Shown here: piece by piece, positions 4,220 through 11,947 of the stretch | Numbering within the stretch: position 1 is the first letter of the stretch | Layout: the number at the start of each line of letters is the position of its first letter | Virus record (IMG/VR): IMGVR_UViG_2675903650_000028 | Reading direction: 5' to 3' (one strand) | Source of the DNA: a virus | Lineage: Duplodnaviria; Heunggongvirae; Uroviricota; Caudoviricetes | DNA: 14,391 nt | The notes under the pieces: generated by a model | The model's input: only the letters and a program-made list of their open reading frames with translations | Database searches by the model: none | Told to the model about the DNA's origin: nothing | Translations under genes and position numbers: made by a program

Positions 4220-4423
4220 TTACGGTGCTGTTTTAAGTCCTGCCGGGATTTCGTTATTATCCATGAGAATAACTTTATCGACCGGATAGCAGTTACCGGG
4301 AATTTTTTGTTCTGCTGCGGCAGCCATGCATTCTTTCATTGAACCGTAAATGTCAATAACCATGTCAACAGGCTCGCCAGTATTAAGAAAAACAGTCAGA
4401 GTGAGGGCAATAGTAGTATTCAT
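4220..4423 (-). CDS. ydfD: YdfD-like small protein (Qin lysis protein homolog)
   Basis: 67 codons from an internal ATG (4421-4423) preceded by AAGGA; the track ORF extends to 4477. Its ATG overlaps the dicB stop (ATGA). Hydrophobic N-terminus (TIALTLTVFL). Position immediately after dicB matches the dicB-ydfD order of Qin; the protein sequence itself is not confidently recalled. Confidence 0.55.
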   Translation of the reverse strand: MNTTIALTLTVFLNTGEPVDMVIDIYGSMKECMAAAAEQKIPGNCYPVDKVILMDNNEIPAGLKTAP

Positions 4424-4608
4424 TGCCAGTATCCTTTTTGCATCGGGCGTAAACGTGCCAGCATTGAAAGAATGCATATTTTATTTAATAGCTCCCGTTC
4501 GTGTTTTCTCTTATTAATGGCATCTTCAGTAAATACAGGGTTACTGATTCTGACACCAATTTCAAAACAACCTTCAGACGTATTGACGTTTGGTAATAAC
4601 GTTTCCAT
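4420..4608 (-). CDS. dicB: Cell division inhibitor DicB
   Basis: 62-aa product from internal ATG 4606-4608 with GAGGA SD. Sequence METLLPNVNTSEGCFEIGV...NKICI.SMLARLR matches my recollection of 62-aa DicB. The track ORF 4420..4704 is a 5'-extended version. Confidence 0.8.
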   Translation of the reverse strand: METLLPNVNTSEGCFEIGVRISNPVFTEDAINKRKHERELLNKICILSMLARLRPMQKGYWQ

Positions 4609-4787
4609 TATCGCGTCCTCAACAATGAATTTTGTGATGCGGTGCCTGGTGCCTCCAGGTGACGTTAACCAGTTAATAATTAACGCCGGATACAGAGAAC
4701 CCACCCATAAGAACCAATACGGAAGTCAACTGGCCTTTTTAACTGTTCCGCGTGCGCTGAGCCGCATTCACCGCATCACAAAATTCA

Positions 4788-4850
4788 CTTTAAAAGGGGC
4801 GGGTATCATAGGAAAAACAAAACGGATACCCGCTAAAAGGTAATCAACAT
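4788..4850 (-). ncRNA. dicF: DicF-like small RNA (approximate ends)
   Basis: On the minus strand: ...UUUUAGCGGGUAUC-(17-nt loop)-GAUACCCGCCCCUUUU, a hairpin plus short U-tract, followed by AAAGUGAAUUUUGUGAUG. Position (between ydfC and dicB) and architecture match my recollection of DicF and its 3' flank. The loop sequence differs from what I recall for K-12. Confidence 0.45.
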
Positions 4851-5174
4851 GGGTTGTTGCAGCGGGGTTGTCACTCAGGCGTATGGTCAACCTGACAACC
4901 CGGTGGACATTTGCGAGGAACGGAGAACCCCCGCCATACTTACCGCCGCGCCATTTCGCGGAGTGCCACAACCGGAAGCGCACGGTCGACGAAAATTTAA
5001 CGACAGGCTATCTATGAACCAGCAACCTCGCCGTGCGCTTTCGCGTTATGCTCTGACTTTTCAGAGAAATATCCTTTCAGTAAACTGTCAGTGCCGGATG
5101 CTCACCCGTGTCCGGCGCACACACTCCACCTCACCCGTGGAGAACTCCTTAATTACCAACCCTCAGGAGGGTGA

Positions 5175-5303
5175 ATGTTAAAATCAACGCTTATTGCTAA
5201 ATGCCTTTATCAAAATCGCATGGTAAGCAGCATTTCAATAGGCGAATCTGTAGTTAAAAGTATTTTCGAAGAGTACTTTCGAAGAGTACTTTTCTGGGCG
5301 TGA
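5175..5303 (+). CDS. Doubtful 42-codon ORF antisense to the dicB operon
   Basis: ATG 5175 is preceded by AGGAGG (5165-5170), which can pair within a CCCUCAGGAGGG hairpin. The ORF contains a tandem 13-nt repeat (not a multiple of 3), which argues against real coding. Confidence 0.2.
   Translation: MLKSTLIAKCLYQNRMVSSISIGESVVKSIFEEYFRRVLFWA
5265..5290. repeat. Perfect tandem 13-mer TTCGAAGAGTACT x2, near-palindromic (AGTACT / TTCGAA cores)
   Basis: Read directly from sequence; preceded by a partial third copy (AGTATT). Confidence 0.7.
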
Positions 5304-5398
5304 TTTTAATAAATGGAATACCAAATTACCGCCAGCAGTTTCAACGCGTATTCTGAAAGCAACTGAAAGAGCAAGTACAATTCGCGTTAACTATTTCA

Positions 5399-5806
5399 TT
5401 AAAGATTTGTGGGATCTTTGATATCCACAGAGCCTAAAGTATGTGCATATGGATGTGCTATTGTGCGCCCCTGTAAATTTGCATCGTTTTCTAAATCTTT
5501 TGATTTCAACAGAACATCAGCAAGACTCTGAATCATGCAGAGATAATCAAAAACAGTTGCCGTTTCTGTTCTGATTGCTGAAATAACATGACCATTCAGG
5601 CAAACAGAAATTACCCGTTCATCAATATCGTTTTTCTGTTTTTGATTATCAGAACCATATAGCCCTGAAAAAGCATTGCGCACATTACGAACCATATTAT
5701 CGATGGTTTCTTTTTTGGTGTATGCCGGGTCAATTTTCACCAGACTATCACCGAGTGTCGTTGCAGCAATTATCTGGATTTCTTTTGGTAAATCTTTAAA
5801 TTCCAT
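5399..5806 (-). CDS. Hypothetical protein (135 aa), low-GC insertion inside the dicB operon
   Basis: ORF with GAGG SD 7 nt upstream of ATG 5806, 22 nt downstream of the ydfC stop. Visibly AT-rich relative to flanking genes. No motif recognised. Confidence 0.6.
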   Translation of the reverse strand: MEFKDLPKEIQIIAATTLGDSLVKIDPAYTKKETIDNMVRNVRNAFSGLYGSDNQKQKNDIDERVISVCLNGHVISAIRTETATVFDYLCMIQSLADVLLKSKDLENDANLQGRTIAHPYAHTLGSVDIKDPTNL

Positions 5807-5828
5807 TATTAGCCTCGTTGGTTAACCA

Positions 5829-6047
5829 TTAACGTGGGTATGTAATCATTCTGGCAATGCTTAATGCCGCTGCTTTTTCCAGATTGGTGATATCCTGCTC
5901 CAGAGCGGACAGATTTTCAGCCTGCTTAGCCCTGGCTTCATTGGCCCATTTCAGGTCCTGCGCAGCCTTAATTTTCTGGTGCATCCACTCATAAAGTTCA
6001 TCATCGGTATAGTCTGGCGCGATGATGACGGGTTCTCGTTTCTGCAT
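5829..6047 (-). CDS. ydfC: YdfC-like protein (72 aa)
   Basis: Length and position after ydfB match the Qin dicB operon; GAGGA SD upstream. Confidence 0.7.
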   Translation of the reverse strand: MQKREPVIIAPDYTDDELYEWMHQKIKAAQDLKWANEARAKQAENLSALEQDITNLEKAAALSIARMITYPR

Positions 6048-6500: not shown

Positions 6501-6533
6501 CAACCAAAAAGATAACGCATTGATTGCGTTATC
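6501..6533 (-). terminator. Intrinsic terminator at the dicA 3' end (bidirectional-looking)
   Basis: GATAACGCA / TGCGTTATC 9-bp stem with 5-nt loop overlaps the dicA stop; followed by TTTTTGG on the minus strand and TTTTGTTTG on the plus strand. Confidence 0.6.
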
Positions 6534-6936
6534 TTTTGTTTGTTCGTTGACGGGCTTTTAATAACTCTTCAAAGAGTTTGTTGAAATTTTTTACTCGGGC
6601 GCGCATCTCGGTGAGCTGAGCATCCTGTTCTGATTCAGGCAATGCATTAAAAAGCTCAAGGAGCTCATGTTCTTTGGGGGATAGAGCAACTGGCTCCTCA
6701 ATAGGTGGTGATGGCTGCTTGTCTTCATCGCCAAATAGAATCCATGTTGGCGAGCACTGCAGTACTTTGCTGAGGGCAAAAAGATTCTTTCCTGTAGGTT
6801 CGCTATCATCCCGCTCCCATTGTGAAACCGATACGTGAGAAATTTTCAGGGCTTTAGCAAGAGACCTTTGGGTGTATTTGAGGTTTTTTCGGCGATATCT
6901 AATGCGTTCGCCAATGGTTAAATTTTTTGTATCCAT
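6529..6936 (-). CDS. dicA: DicA repressor (HTH, Xre/cI-like)
   Basis: 135-aa ORF. N-terminal HTH (LTIGERIRYRRKNLKYTQRSLAKALKISHVSVSQWER) and the rest of the sequence match my recollection of DicA. Divergent from a Cro-like gene. Confidence 0.88.
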   Translation of the reverse strand: MDTKNLTIGERIRYRRKNLKYTQRSLAKALKISHVSVSQWERDDSEPTGKNLFALSKVLQCSPTWILFGDEDKQPSPPIEEPVALSPKEHELLELFNALPESEQDAQLTEMRARVKNFNKLFEELLKARQRTNKR

Positions 6937-7250: not shown

Positions 7251-7755
7251 ACAGGTTTGTGAGGCTCTGGATGCCTGGGTGTGCCGACCAGGAATGACAC
7301 AGGAGCAGGCGACGATATTAATCACGGAAGCATTCTGGGCTCTGAAAGAACGCCCGAACATCGATGTTCAACGCGTCACGTTTAATGATGGCGAGGTTGA
7401 TCAACGGGCGCTGGGCGTTAACCGGGTGAAGATATTCGAACGCTGGAAAGCTATCGACACCAGGGATAAGCGGAAAAAATTCACGGCGCTGATTCCGGCA
7501 ATTATGGAGGCTATCCGGATTAATGATTTCAGGTTGTATCGTGAAATTAGTGACGGAAAAAGCATCACGTACATGATCGCCGGGTTAAACAAAGAATATG
7601 GCGATGTGGTGGAGTCCGGGCTGCTTTTTGCAGATCCAGCTGTAGTGGATCGTGAAACTGACGAACTTATAGAAAAAGCCATTGCTTTCAAACTTGCGTA
7701 TCGACAGCAATACCAACAAAAAGCTGGATGGAATTATGAGTCTTCTTTTTGCTGA
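7234..7755 (+). CDS. YdaT-like protein (putative CII-position regulator or toxin family)
   Basis: 173-aa ORF overlapping the dicC 3' end by 17 nt, in the position occupied by ydaT/cII in lambdoid prophages. Weak pattern resemblance to YdaT (MKI..E...A..W...ALIPAI). Confidence 0.55.
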   Translation: MKITPEQVCEALDAWVCRPGMTQEQATILITEAFWALKERPNIDVQRVTFNDGEVDQRALGVNRVKIFERWKAIDTRDKRKKFTALIPAIMEAIRINDFRLYREISDGKSITYMIAGLNKEYGDVVESGLLFADPAVVDRETDELIEKAIAFKLAYRQQYQQKAGWNYESSFC

Positions 7756-11615: not shown

Positions 11616-11684
11616 GACTGTGGGTGCTTGAGGCTATCTGTCTCAGGCATGAACACCAAAAGGCAGATAGAGAAAAGCCCCAGT

Positions 11685-11743
11685 TAACATTACGCGTCCT
11701 GCAAGACGCTTAACATTAATCTGAGGCTCAATCCATGCTGAAC
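11685..11743 (-). ncRNA. Putative Sok-like antisense RNA (approximate)
   Basis: Minus-strand promoter-like TTGCCT-17 nt-TAACCT (plus coordinates 11778-11750). The transcript would be complementary to the SD and start of the upstream in-frame ORF (ATG 11735) and would contain hairpin GCGUC-UUGCAG-GACGC (11693-11708). About 60 nt. Confidence 0.3.
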
Positions 11744-11791
11744 ACATGTAGGTTAGCCTCTTACGTGCCGAAAGGCAAGGAGAAGCAGGCT

Positions 11792-11947
11792 ATGAAGCAG
11801 CAAAAGGCGATGTTAATCGCCCTTATCGTCATCTGTTTAACCGTCATAGTGACGGCACTGGTAACGAGGAAAGACCTCTGCGAGGTACGAATTCGAACCG
11901 GCCAGACGGAGGTCGCTGTCTTCACAGCTTACGAACCTGAGGAGTAA
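11792..11947 (+). CDS. hokD: Hok-family type I toxin (HokD/RelF-like)
   Basis: 51-aa product MKQQKAMLIALIVICLTVIVTALVTRKDLCEVRIRTGQTEVAVFTAYEPEE: Hok signature with one transmembrane helix and CEV.IRTGQTEVAVF. An in-frame upstream start at 11735 gives the 70-aa track ORF (mok-like; not resolved). Confidence 0.85.
   Translation: MKQQKAMLIALIVICLTVIVTALVTRKDLCEVRIRTGQTEVAVFTAYEPEE

What the first reader, a model, noticed from the sequence alone, without database searches (positions are those of the whole stretch)
4851..5398. About 550 bp of structured, non-coding-looking sequence within the dicB operon
No convincing ORF on either strand: the only long plus-strand ORF (4849-5181) is Arg/Pro-rich and looks non-protein, and the minus strand has stops in all frames. 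The 4860-5170 part is GC-rich with perfect hairpins (GGGTTGTCA / TGACAACCC at 4865-4901, CCGGA...TCCGG near 5094-5116, CTCCAC...GTGGAG near 5125-5143). The 5175-5398 part is AT-rich. The mosaic composition suggests a remnant or an RNA element. The 9-bp hairpin lies immediately 5' of the DicF-like RNA on the operon transcript and could guide its processing.
Basis: seen in the sequence. Interest (0 to 1): 0.5.

Follow-up and report, generated by a model that had tools for sequence, protein, structure and literature searches.

The report
DicF-precursor leader plus broken small gene
The 550 bases hold three things: a small prophage gene broken by a 13-base duplication, that gene's upstream signal, and a conserved folded RNA leader from which a DicF-type small RNA is cut, whose E. 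coli K-12 counterpart is known as a processed transcript but has no described structure.

Summary
The operon runs on the minus strand, and the finding splits into three parts.

(1) 5175-5421 (+), the AT-rich part, is a frameshifted copy of a conserved 77-aa phage protein (phrog_10348). A 13-bp tandem duplication broke it. The gene is intact in 649 of 650 E. coli genomes that carry it.

In related prophages this block sits upstream of at least 8 different small plus-strand genes. It is probably the leader of an antisense accessory-gene slot. The strand on which the hairpins act is unresolved.

(3) 4852-5043 (-), the GC-rich core, is 92% identical to the unannotated ydfC-dicF spacer of K-12 Qin and occurs in about 80% of complete E. 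coli genomes. It folds into a long hairpin (H1) and a four-way junction. Covariation supports the fold on the operon strand. In K-12 an RNase III cut, which size arithmetic places inside H1, gives the 190-nt DicF precursor, and RNase E cuts after the junction.

No coding signal exists in part 3. The "no ORF" claim fails for the AT-rich part. The biology is largely known, so interest is modest.

The parts
5175..5421 (+). Pseudogene of a conserved 77-aa phage protein (p77, phrog_10348), antisense to the operon. The frame breaks after codon 35 and stops after 42 aa.
   Evidence: PGAP marks the same stretch 'frameshifted' in a 99.6%-identical genome. It is intact as WP_000920491.1 in other strains. 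The restored protein matches phrog_10348 over 77/77 positions at E 1e-47. There are 33 homologue clusters at 55-72% identity, nearly all 77 aa, in seven genera. The AF2 model has pLDDT 97.3. Of 650 E. coli genomes with the gene, 649 lack the duplication.
5259..5292 (.). Tandem repeat array of 13-bp period (2.6 copies). One extra unit (GAAGAGTACTTTC) is the frameshifting lesion.
   Evidence: TRF. Alignment to intact copies shows a 13-nt insertion.
5166..5170 (+). Shine-Dalgarno GGAGG, 4 nt upstream of the p77 ATG.
   Evidence: Read from the sequence. The same TCAGGAGGGTGAA-ATG junction precedes four unrelated complete ORFs in related loci.
5124..5142 (.). Hairpin 1: CTCCAC-CTCACCC-GTGGAG (plus-strand reading). 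Acting strand unresolved.
   Evidence: The stems are invariant in 24 representatives and the loops vary. Counterpart hairpins lie about 35 nt upstream of p77 homologues in Yersinia, Salmonella, Klebsiella and Serratia. A different hairpin replaces it in a second leader variant.
5093..5116 (.). Hairpin 2: GCCGGA-12 nt-TCCGGC, with the same loop motif CTCACCCGTG. Acting strand unresolved.
   Evidence: It is the constant element upstream of both leader variants and all cargo genes.
5058..5086 (+). Candidate weak sigma-70 promoter TTTTCA-17 nt-TAAACT for the plus-strand cargo gene. The predicted start falls at hairpin 2.
   Evidence: Inference only. It matches 8 of 12 consensus positions and the promoter scan did not call it. 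TTTTCA is kept in 17 and TAAACT in 18 of 19 distinct variants, while the spacer sequence varies and stays 17-18 nt.
4973..5043 (-). H1: long hairpin with a conserved basal stem of about 15 bp and a hypervariable top. By homology it is the RNase III substrate.
   Evidence: Inverted repeat I2. RNAalifold places it at columns 13-28/70-86. Distinct variants each keep the basal stem. Nine of 14 pairs show double changes in the metagenome sample. L106 shows compensated changes.
4978..4979 (-). Inferred RNase III cut, giving the 5' end of the roughly 190-nt precursor.
   Evidence: The K-12 190-nt and 53-nt DicF species share a 3' end, so the cut lies 137 nt upstream of the DicF 5' end. That is GUGCG|CUUCC, inside the H1 3' arm. 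The site maps to the window through the alignments. The K-12 experiments are in PMC10448788. It was not measured in this strain, and the exact nucleotide could not be read from the stored supplement text.
4856..4972 (-). Four-way junction. P1 is 4965-4972/4856-4863. P2 is 4957-4961/4946-4950. P3 has its base at 4942-4944/4902-4904 and carries a variable hairpin. P4 is 4865-4901.
   Evidence: Consensus fold. Most of 35 distinct variants fold independently into the same junction. There are 42 distinct P3 inserts and nearly all form hairpins with different stems. The sense strand is favoured, 3274 against 3020 of 3343 cells paired. The loops and junction strands are 98-99% conserved.
4865..4901 (-). 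Loop CCAUAC may pair with GUAUGG in the P3 strand.
   Evidence: I8. Arm variants include compensated ones. Thirteen of 19 loop columns are invariant. The loop-junction pairing has one compensated case (L120), one wobble case and one terminal mismatch. It is a lead only.
4846..4855 (-). Single-stranded A/U-rich linker, the predicted RNase E entry site that would create the sRNA 5' end.
   Evidence: Inferred from K-12, where RNase E makes the DicF 5' end 16 nt after P1. In the window the linker differs in sequence.
4790..4845 (-). DicF-position sRNA variant: terminator hairpin 4799-4807/4825-4833 plus a U run, without the canonical DicF 5' seed. It is a neighbour of the finding.
   Evidence: I7 and the terminator-like call. 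Alignment to K-12 DicF shows a 9-nt gap and substitutions. Rfam DicF gives no hit, against 76.7 bits in K-12. It is one of at least 6 cassette types.
5399..5806 (-). 135-aa operon-strand gene (phrog_1363), the convergent partner of p77, overlapping its 3' end by 23 nt. Together with p77 it is an insertion relative to K-12.
   Evidence: The same 23-nt convergent overlap is seen in Serratia, Klebsiella, Dickeya and Salmonella, and a 26-nt overlap in Yersinia, where the homologue is 78 aa.

Best explanation
The region is a composite inside a prophage early-left (dicBF-type) operon transcribed on the minus strand. It contains three things.

(a) 5175-5421 (+) is a small accessory gene (p77, function unknown). 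It lies antisense to the operon and was recently inactivated by a 13-bp tandem duplication.

(b) 5058-5174 is that gene's conserved upstream block: a candidate weak promoter, two hairpins and a Shine-Dalgarno sequence. In sister prophages the same block drives other small cargo genes. K-12 keeps the block without any cargo gene.

(c) 4852-5043 (-) is the structured 5' portion of the sRNA precursor.

Proposed mechanism. When the operon is derepressed, the polycistronic RNA folds here into a long hairpin (H1) stacked next to a four-way junction (P1-P4). RNase III cuts the H1 stem and releases a precursor of about 190 nt. RNase E then cuts the A/U-rich single strand just 3' of the junction and frees a sRNA of about 52 nt that ends at its own intrinsic terminator.

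Shown here: homology, the fold, its covariation, strand preference, absence of coding signal, and the frameshift. [quoted passage not shown] Inferred: that the same cuts occur in this prophage, and the cut positions.
For: - Homology: window 4856-5161 is 92.5% identical to K-12 Qin between ydfC and dicF. It is present in 4310 of 5426 complete E. coli genomes and unannotated in MG1655.
- Literature on the K-12 copy: the 190-nt species needs RNase III, the 53-nt species needs RNase E, and Fig. S1 shows this very sequence (PMC10448788). [quoted passage not shown] An Hfq-enriched interval lies upstream of dicF (PMC4152368).
- Structure: RNAalifold gives H1 plus a four-way junction, and distinct variants refold the same way.
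- Covariation: in a metagenome sample chosen only on the P2-junction 28-mer, 97.9% of cells pair. Seventeen of 45 pairs show double changes, against 6.0 in shuffles (0/500 reach it) and 3-7 when partners are slid.
- Strand: 3274 cells pair on the sense strand against 3020 on the antisense, out of 3343, and the sense strand is favoured in every helix. The covariance model scores 222-252 bits on the sense strand and 17-25 bits on the antisense.
- Cut site: the cut inferred from fragment sizes falls inside the H1 stem.
- No coding: the synonymous fraction in the long plus-strand frame is 26%, the same as other frames. Variable sites by codon position are 63/67/58. Six alleles create stops.
- p77.
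- Cargo slot.
Against: - No transcript data exist for this strain. The sRNA here is not canonical DicF, and its linker differs, so the RNase E site is a guess.
- In the first alignment the stems were nearly invariant and covariation was not above shuffles. The stronger counts come from alignments fitted to the covariance model and from related sequences.
- The MFE z-score is better on the antisense strand (-3.77 against -1.88).
- Loops and junction strands are as conserved as the stems. A plain processing spacer does not obviously need that.
- The role of the two short hairpins and the promoter call are inference. The promoter matches only 8 of 12 consensus positions and the scan did not report it.
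- K-12-type prophages keep the hairpin block without any cargo gene.
Confidence: 0.78

Rival explanations
1. The H1 plus four-way-junction module is mainly a cis-acting transcription element. It could be a processive antiterminator or terminator-control RNA, in the manner of HK022 put. It would set how much RNA polymerase reads through the sRNA terminator into dicB and the recombination genes. sRNA processing would then be secondary.
For: The module always lies just upstream of an intrinsic terminator that must be read through to express downstream genes. In a second subfamily it sits directly after the cI-like gene, where nutL or putL sit, and is followed by a different terminator-sRNA and non-dicB genes. 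Loops and junction strands are 98-99% conserved while the sRNA seed varies among at least 6 types. That pattern suggests a sequence-specific partner. K-12 makes both terminated and read-through transcripts.
Against: There is no significant similarity to HK022 putL: only a 9-nt match at E 0.16. put is a two-stem RNA of about 73 nt, not a four-way junction. No alternative pairing with the terminator was found. No experiment links this leader to read-through. The known RNase III and RNase E roles already account for the structure.
Confidence: 0.12
2. The functional RNA is on the plus strand. The region would be a long 5' UTR of the cargo gene, or an antisense RNA that silences leaky DicF/dicB expression in lysogens.
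For: Plus-strand genes start at 5175 and need transcription from the left. The plus strand has the better MFE z-score, -3.77. Some P4 changes (G to A in the 5' arm, 19 distinct sequences) are wobble pairs only on the plus strand. A promoter-like site lies at 4583-4611 (+).
Against: Across all helices the minus strand pairs better, 97.9% against 90.3%. The 302 G-U cells on the minus strand would be A-C mismatches on the plus strand. In P1, 102 of 600 cells are G-U pairs on the minus strand. The covariance model scores 17-25 bits on the antisense strand. The best-conserved promoter candidate lies downstream of H1 and the junction, so they would not be in the cargo transcript.
Confidence: 0.07
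3. Conservation is at the DNA level. The block would be a boundary or linker sequence that mediates homologous exchange of flanking modules among lambdoid prophages, or a protein-binding site, with no RNA role.
For: Several mosaic breakpoints lie at its edges or inside it. These include the junction with the cargo gene or ydfC, a point inside hairpin 1, and a point just before H1. The two short hairpin stems never vary. The flanking cargo and sRNA cassettes are swapped.
Against: Compensatory double changes occur in H1, P3 and P4. The wobble pattern is strand-specific. The K-12 RNA is cut by RNase III within this stretch, at a position that size arithmetic puts inside H1. An Hfq-enriched interval lies upstream of dicF in K-12.
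Confidence: 0.05
4. The GC-rich part encodes the 110-aa Arg/Pro-rich protein on the plus strand (4849-5181).
For: An open frame of 110-111 codons exists in both the window and K-12. PHROG families give weak partial hits to ORFs called here.
Against: The first 25 or so residues are in a different frame in K-12 because of indels. The window's ATG is AGA in 53 of 56 homologues, and in those the window's reading frame hits a stop after 9 codons. The synonymous fraction is no higher than in other frames. Variable sites show no codon-position periodicity. Six alleles create stops. There is no Pfam hit. PGAP never annotates it.
Confidence: 0.02

Closest known systems
The 'long untranslated region containing dicF' (ydfC 3' UTR, 190-nt DicF precursor) of the dicBF operon in E. 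coli K-12 prophage Qin
   Same: It is 92.5% identical over window 4856-5161 and lies in the same position relative to the sRNA and dicB. It has the same H1 hairpin and four-way junction. [quoted passage not shown]
   Different: The window has a 630-bp two-gene insertion (the 135-aa gene plus p77) between ydfC and the leader. The tops of H1 and P3 differ. The sRNA that follows is not canonical DicF. No secondary structure for the leader was found in the papers read.
3'-UTR- or operon-derived sRNAs whose ends are set by flanking stem-loops and RNase E, such as MicL, CpxQ and SroC
   Same: The sRNA is cut from a longer mRNA. A structured element lies next to a single-stranded A/U-rich cleavage site, and the sRNA ends at an intrinsic terminator. 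DicF is listed in this class in the review PMC9438474.
   Different: An additional RNase III step acts in a dedicated hairpin. The upstream structure is a junction of about 120 nt with invariant loops, not one or two simple stem-loops. That stem-loops direct MicL cleavage is my recollection of a paper title in that review's reference list. It was not tested here.
HK022 put RNA (cis-acting processive antiterminator of a lambdoid early operon)
   Same: Both are structured RNAs in the early-left transcript of an N-less lambdoid phage, upstream of terminators. One leader subfamily lies directly after the repressor gene.
   Different: put is about 73 nt with two stems and starts at +2 of the transcript. 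Only a 9-nt match was found, at E 0.16. No functional evidence exists for antitermination here.
Lambdoid 'morons' and accessory-gene slots
   Same: Small genes of unknown function are inserted between conserved backbone genes, on the strand opposite the repressed early operon. They sit behind a shared upstream signal and are swapped among relatives. In Salmonella the p77 homologue follows sieB.
   Different: No promoter or terminator was demonstrated. The cargo gene's 3' end overlaps the operon-strand partner gene by 23 nt, and this overlap recurs in four other genera (26 nt in Yersinia). The upstream block persists in K-12 without cargo.
Rfam STnc100 (RF02076)
   Same: A sub-threshold match covers the dicB 5' UTR next to the finding. 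It scores 33.5 bits in the window at 4631-4785 (-) and 34.4 bits in K-12.
   Different: It lies outside the finding and below the gathering score of 47. It does not cover the leader.

Membership tests
K-12 Qin dicBF leader (ydfC-dicF untranslated region, pre-DicF) | Sequence homology to the K-12 ydfC-dicF spacer | tested here: met
   92.5% identity over 306 nt.
K-12 Qin dicBF leader (ydfC-dicF untranslated region, pre-DicF) | Lies on the operon strand between the promoter-proximal small genes and a terminator-ended sRNA followed by dicB | tested here: met
   The order is ydfA/B/C, 135-aa gene, leader, sRNA, dicB, all on the minus strand. The covariance model hits all 7 dicB-derived loci.
K-12 Qin dicBF leader (ydfC-dicF untranslated region, pre-DicF) | Double-stranded stem at the RNase III cut that gives the 190-nt species | tested here: met
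   The cut position inferred from fragment sizes lies inside the H1 3' arm. The stem is conserved and covaries.
K-12 Qin dicBF leader (ydfC-dicF untranslated region, pre-DicF) | [quoted passage not shown] | not testable with these tools
   Known only for K-12 (PMC10448788).
DicF RNA (Rfam RF00039), for the neighbouring sRNA | Match to the DicF covariance model at or above its gathering score of 48 bits | tested here: not met
   No hit at E<=10 in window 4300-5900. The K-12 copy scores 76.7 bits. The window sRNA lacks the 5' seed GGUGACGUU.
DicF RNA (Rfam RF00039), for the neighbouring sRNA | Same locus position and a GGCGG...CCGCC-type terminator with a U run | tested here: met
   The sRNA behaves as a positional analogue and is not filed as DicF.
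phrog_10348 (77-aa phage protein, function unknown) | Full-length match to the family profile | tested here: met
   The intact homologue from locus L002 (the frame the window would have without the duplication) matches positions 1-77 of 77 at E 1.1e-47. Homologues are 77 aa in seven genera.
phrog_10348 (77-aa phage protein, function unknown) | Intact reading frame | tested here: not met
   The 13-bp duplication stops the frame after 42 aa in the window and in L001 only. It is a pseudogene.
HK022 put antiterminator RNA | Sequence or structure resemblance to putL (two stems, about 73 nt) | tested here: not met
   Best match is 9 nt at E 0.16. The architecture differs.
HK022 put antiterminator RNA | Suppresses termination in cis by binding the RNA polymerase beta' zinc-binding domain | not testable with these tools
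   Needs in vitro transcription or genetics.
Any curated RNA family (Rfam 15) | Covariance-model match within 4851-5398 | tested here: not met
   Only chance-level eukaryotic hits at E above 4. Nothing was found in the K-12 leader or the subfamily-2 leader.
Known anti-phage defence proteins (PADLOC) | Profile match for p77, its 135-aa partner, or the alternative cargo proteins | tested here: not met
   No hits at E<=0.01.

The most novel reading that the evidence does not exclude
The H1 plus four-way-junction module could be an undescribed, widespread class of structured RNA in N-less lambdoid early-left operons. It has near-invariant loops and a possible loop-junction pseudoknot. It precedes interchangeable terminator-sRNA cassettes, and in one subfamily it sits right after the repressor gene. 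On this reading it binds a specific partner, such as RNA polymerase, Hfq, RNase E or a phage protein. It would control the choice between terminating to make the sRNA and reading through to express dicB/kil and the recombination genes. It would not be a passive processing spacer.
Probability: 0.15. Interest if true: 0.7.

Novelty: new member of a known kind. Interest (0 to 1): 0.35.

Why it matters
DicF is one of the oldest known bacterial sRNAs, and its operon sits in most E. coli genomes, often in several copies. Even so, none of the papers read here described a structure or role for the roughly 340-nt RNA in front of it.

This analysis gives a concrete, covariation-backed fold: an RNase III hairpin next to a four-way junction. 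The fold's loops and junction strands are more conserved than the sRNA's seed and linker that follow it. That yields precise mutations for asking how the prophage divides its early transcript between sRNA production and read-through into the toxic dicB gene.

It also shows that the sRNA position is a swappable cassette, with at least six seed types. The opposite strand holds a swappable small-gene slot. For genome annotation, the practical lesson is that an AT-rich "non-coding" patch here is a one-lesion pseudogene.

Tried and rejected
- Rfam at gathering and E-value thresholds found nothing real inside the finding.
- MFE z-scores do not separate the strands and were not used as evidence.
- The first 38-sequence MAFFT alignment showed no covariation above shuffles because the stems were nearly invariant. 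The viral loci had also been selected on the P4 arms, which biases P4 conservation. I corrected this with a metagenome sample selected on a different motif.
- A pseudoknot between the P3 loop and its 3' tail looked attractive by eye but is not above shuffled tails, p about 0.14. I dropped it.
- The simple sigma-70 scan found no promoter for the plus-strand gene. The TTTTCA/TAAACT candidate rests only on its conservation pattern.
- A literature search for the p77 accession and sequence found nothing.
- Comparison with HK022 putL gave no significant similarity.
- The covariance model found no leader in the Serratia, Klebsiella, Dickeya, Salmonella or Yersinia loci that carry p77 homologues. The leader therefore goes with the sRNA/dicB side and not with p77.
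- A 65-nt megablast of the sRNA variant returned nothing, so its frequency in E. coli was not measured.
- The 110-aa plus-strand ORF and the 71-aa minus-strand ORF were rejected as genes.
Full report
**Orientation.** The genes around the finding run on the minus strand. From right to left they are a CI/DicA-like repressor (6529-6936), ydfA/ydfB/ydfC homologues, a 135-aa gene (5399-5806), the finding itself, dicB (4420-4608), a DUF1482 gene and a RecE-like exonuclease. This is a dicBF-type early-left operon of a lambdoid prophage. A genome 99.6% identical over 4600-5500 (E. coli 602354, NZ_CP025847) places it next to int/xis and potC. Alignment to K-12 Qin, phage Tritos and a second E. coli prophage shows three pieces with different histories.

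**Observation check.** The hairpins and the composition step are real. The 110-aa plus-strand ORF exists. The claim of no convincing ORF fails for the AT-rich half, as described next.

**Piece 1: 5175-5421 (+), the AT-rich part.**
- PGAP annotates this stretch as a frameshifted pseudogene in the near-identical genome. In other strains, including O157:H7, it annotates an intact 77-aa hypothetical protein, WP_000920491.1.
- The window carries one extra 13-bp unit in a short tandem array at 5259-5292. This ends the frame after 42 aa.
- The restored protein matches phrog_10348 end to end.
- It has 33 homologue clusters at 55-72% identity, almost all exactly 77 aa. They come from Klebsiella, Dickeya, Xenorhabdus, Salmonella, Morganella, Yersinia and Serratia.
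- The predicted structure is a confident five-helix fold, pLDDT 97.3. It has no informative structural neighbour.
- Of 650 complete E. coli genomes with this gene, only one shares the duplication. The lesion is therefore recent.
- In every genus examined the gene lies beside the CI-like repressor on the strand opposite the early-left operon. It converges on an operon-strand gene whose 3' end it overlaps by 23 nt (26 nt in Yersinia).
- Together with the 135-aa gene it is an insertion relative to K-12.

**Piece 2: about 5058-5174, the two short hairpins.**
- Their stems are invariant in homologues, and their loops share the motif CTCACCCGTG and vary.
- Read on the plus strand, the block ends in TCAGGAGGGTGAA-ATG.
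- In sister prophages the same block and junction precede four unrelated complete ORFs: p77, a 92-aa phrog_18692 protein, a 91-aa protein, and a 73-aa phrog_7249 protein.
- A second leader variant keeps hairpin 2 but has a different second hairpin. It precedes four more ORFs.
- Hairpins in the same position lie upstream of p77 homologues in other genera.
- A TTTTCA-17-TAAACT motif just upstream keeps its hexamers while its spacer varies. It matches only 8 of 12 consensus positions and the scan did not call it.
- I read this block as the expression leader of an antisense accessory-gene slot, with moderate confidence. K-12-type prophages keep it without cargo. A role on the operon strand, for example as a 3' stabiliser of the upstream mRNA after cleavage, is not excluded.

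**Piece 3: 4852-5043 (-), the GC-rich core.**
- *Homology.* Window 4856-5161, which spans this core and the hairpin block of piece 2, is 92.5% identical to the K-12 sequence between ydfC and dicF and is found in 4310 of 5426 complete E. coli genomes. It carries no annotation in MG1655 or elsewhere.
- *Literature.* Papers call it a long untranslated region or the ydfC 3' UTR. They show that the 190-nt DicF species needs RNase III and the 53-nt species needs RNase E. The supplementary figure displays this sequence. An Hfq-enriched interval was reported upstream of dicF.
- *Cut site.* Because 190 minus 53 is 137, the RNase III cut maps to GUGCG|CUUCC. That corresponds to window 4979/4978.
- *Fold.* RNAalifold on 38 representatives gives a long hairpin H1 (5043-4973), immediately followed by a four-way junction. 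The inferred cut lies inside the H1 3' arm.
- *Refolding.* Distinct variants refold into the same shapes. P3 has 42 distinct inserts, and nearly all are hairpins with different stem sequences.

**Strength of the structural evidence.**
- The first alignment gave 99% pairing but no covariation above shuffles, because the stems hardly vary. Those loci had also been picked by the P4 arms.
- I built a covariance model and drew an independent metagenome sample selected on the P2-junction 28-mer.
- In that sample the P4 arms vary and include a fully compensated GGATCACCA/TGGTGATCC variant.
- Seventeen of 45 pairs show double changes, against 6.0 in shuffles (0/500) and 3-7 when partners are slid. These include 9 of 14 pairs in H1 and 5 of 9 in P4.
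- That alignment is fitted to the model and the sequences are related, so the numbers lean towards the structure.
- The operon strand pairs better than its complement in every helix, 3274 against 3020 of 3343 cells. The model scores ten-fold higher on that strand.
- MFE z-scores do not help.
- Loops and junction strands are 98-99% conserved, while the H1 top, P3 and the linker vary.
- The P4 loop CCAUAC may pair with GUAUGG in the P3 strand. The support is one compensated case, one wobble case and one terminal mismatch, so this is only a lead.

**Not coding.** The window's 110-aa ORF and a 111-aa K-12 ORF share a frame only after residue 25 or so. The window's ATG is AGA in 53 of 56 homologues. 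Substitutions show no excess of synonymous changes and no codon periodicity, and six alleles create stops.

**Mechanism.** On derepression the polycistronic RNA folds into H1 and the junction. RNase III cuts H1, separating the upstream mRNA from a precursor of about 190 nt. RNase E then cuts the A/U-rich strand after P1 and releases the sRNA, which ends at its terminator. The first two steps are shown in K-12 and inferred here. The cleavage position in the window's different linker is a guess.

**The sRNA next door.** It is a positional analogue of DicF. It lacks the canonical 5' seed and the Rfam DicF model does not find it. At least six such cassettes follow the same leader.

**Rivals.** A put-like transcription role is the most interesting alternative. 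Its support is the module's position upstream of a terminator, a subfamily placed right after the repressor gene, and the invariant loops. There is no similarity to putL and no functional data. Plus-strand function, a DNA-only role, and protein coding are each contradicted by the tests above.

**Verdict.** The finding is real but mostly explained. It consists of a recent pseudogene, that gene's leader, and the homologue of a known sRNA-precursor region. What is new is the fold of that region and the modular layout around it.

Noticed in passing
window 4790-4845 (-): The sRNA at the DicF position is a variant. Relative to K-12 it has a 9-nt gap that removes the GGUGACGUU seed, a different loop, and the same kind of terminator. 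Rfam DicF does not detect it. At least six cassette types follow the same leader in 124 loci. Canonical DicF accounts for 108 and the window type for 4. Targets are unknown.
   Followed up: partly
window 4631-4785 (-): The dicB 5' UTR gives a sub-threshold STnc100 (RF02076) match at 33.5 bits (gathering score 47). It is closed by a 15-bp long-range inverted repeat at 4630-4644/4770-4784. It still contains AACGUCACC, which is complementary to the canonical DicF seed that this prophage's sRNA has lost.
   Followed up: no
related loci L023, L024, L030, L034, L019, L062, L077, L130 and others (plus strand upstream of the leader): There is an antisense accessory-gene slot. At least eight different small ORFs of 68-98 aa sit behind the same hairpin block and Shine-Dalgarno sequence. 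Two of them match PHROGs of unknown function (18692 and 7249). None matches PADLOC.
   Followed up: partly
window 5399-5421, and L132-L140: p77 and its operon-strand partner overlap tail to tail by exactly 23 nt in E. coli, Serratia, Klebsiella, Dickeya and Salmonella, and by 26 nt in Yersinia. The partner gene varies from 77 to 191 aa. In Salmonella (L139) a sieB gene lies upstream of p77 on the same strand.
   Followed up: partly
L148 1704-1907 (-), also L212, L178, L106: A second subfamily of the leader scores about 148 bits with the model. Its H1 stem carries compensated changes. It lies directly after a cI-like gene. A different terminator-sRNA, a different long-stem UTR and a non-dicB gene follow it. 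The same contig carries C4 antisense RNA and IsrK.
   Followed up: partly
L188 1526-1626 (-), L228: A partial leader has only P2-P4 and no H1 or P1. It carries the fully compensated P4 arms GGATCACCA/TGGTGATCC. A tRNA-like Rfam hit lies a few hundred bases away on the same strand.
   Followed up: no
window 11622-11797 (+): There is a full-length sok antitoxin RNA (RF01794, 118.9 bits). This implies a hok/sok-type locus elsewhere in the prophage.
   Followed up: no
L001 7786-8029 (near-identical genome; window about 7385-7628 if collinear): PGAP marks the Cro/CI-family gene of the near-identical prophage as frameshifted. If the window shares this, the prophage carries more than one recent lesion. 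This was not checked in the window.
   Followed up: no
window 5001-5013 (-), top of H1: The motif UGUCGUUAAAUUU inside the otherwise hypervariable H1 top is kept across most variants. It could be an Hfq or RNase E site. It remains unexplained.
   Followed up: no
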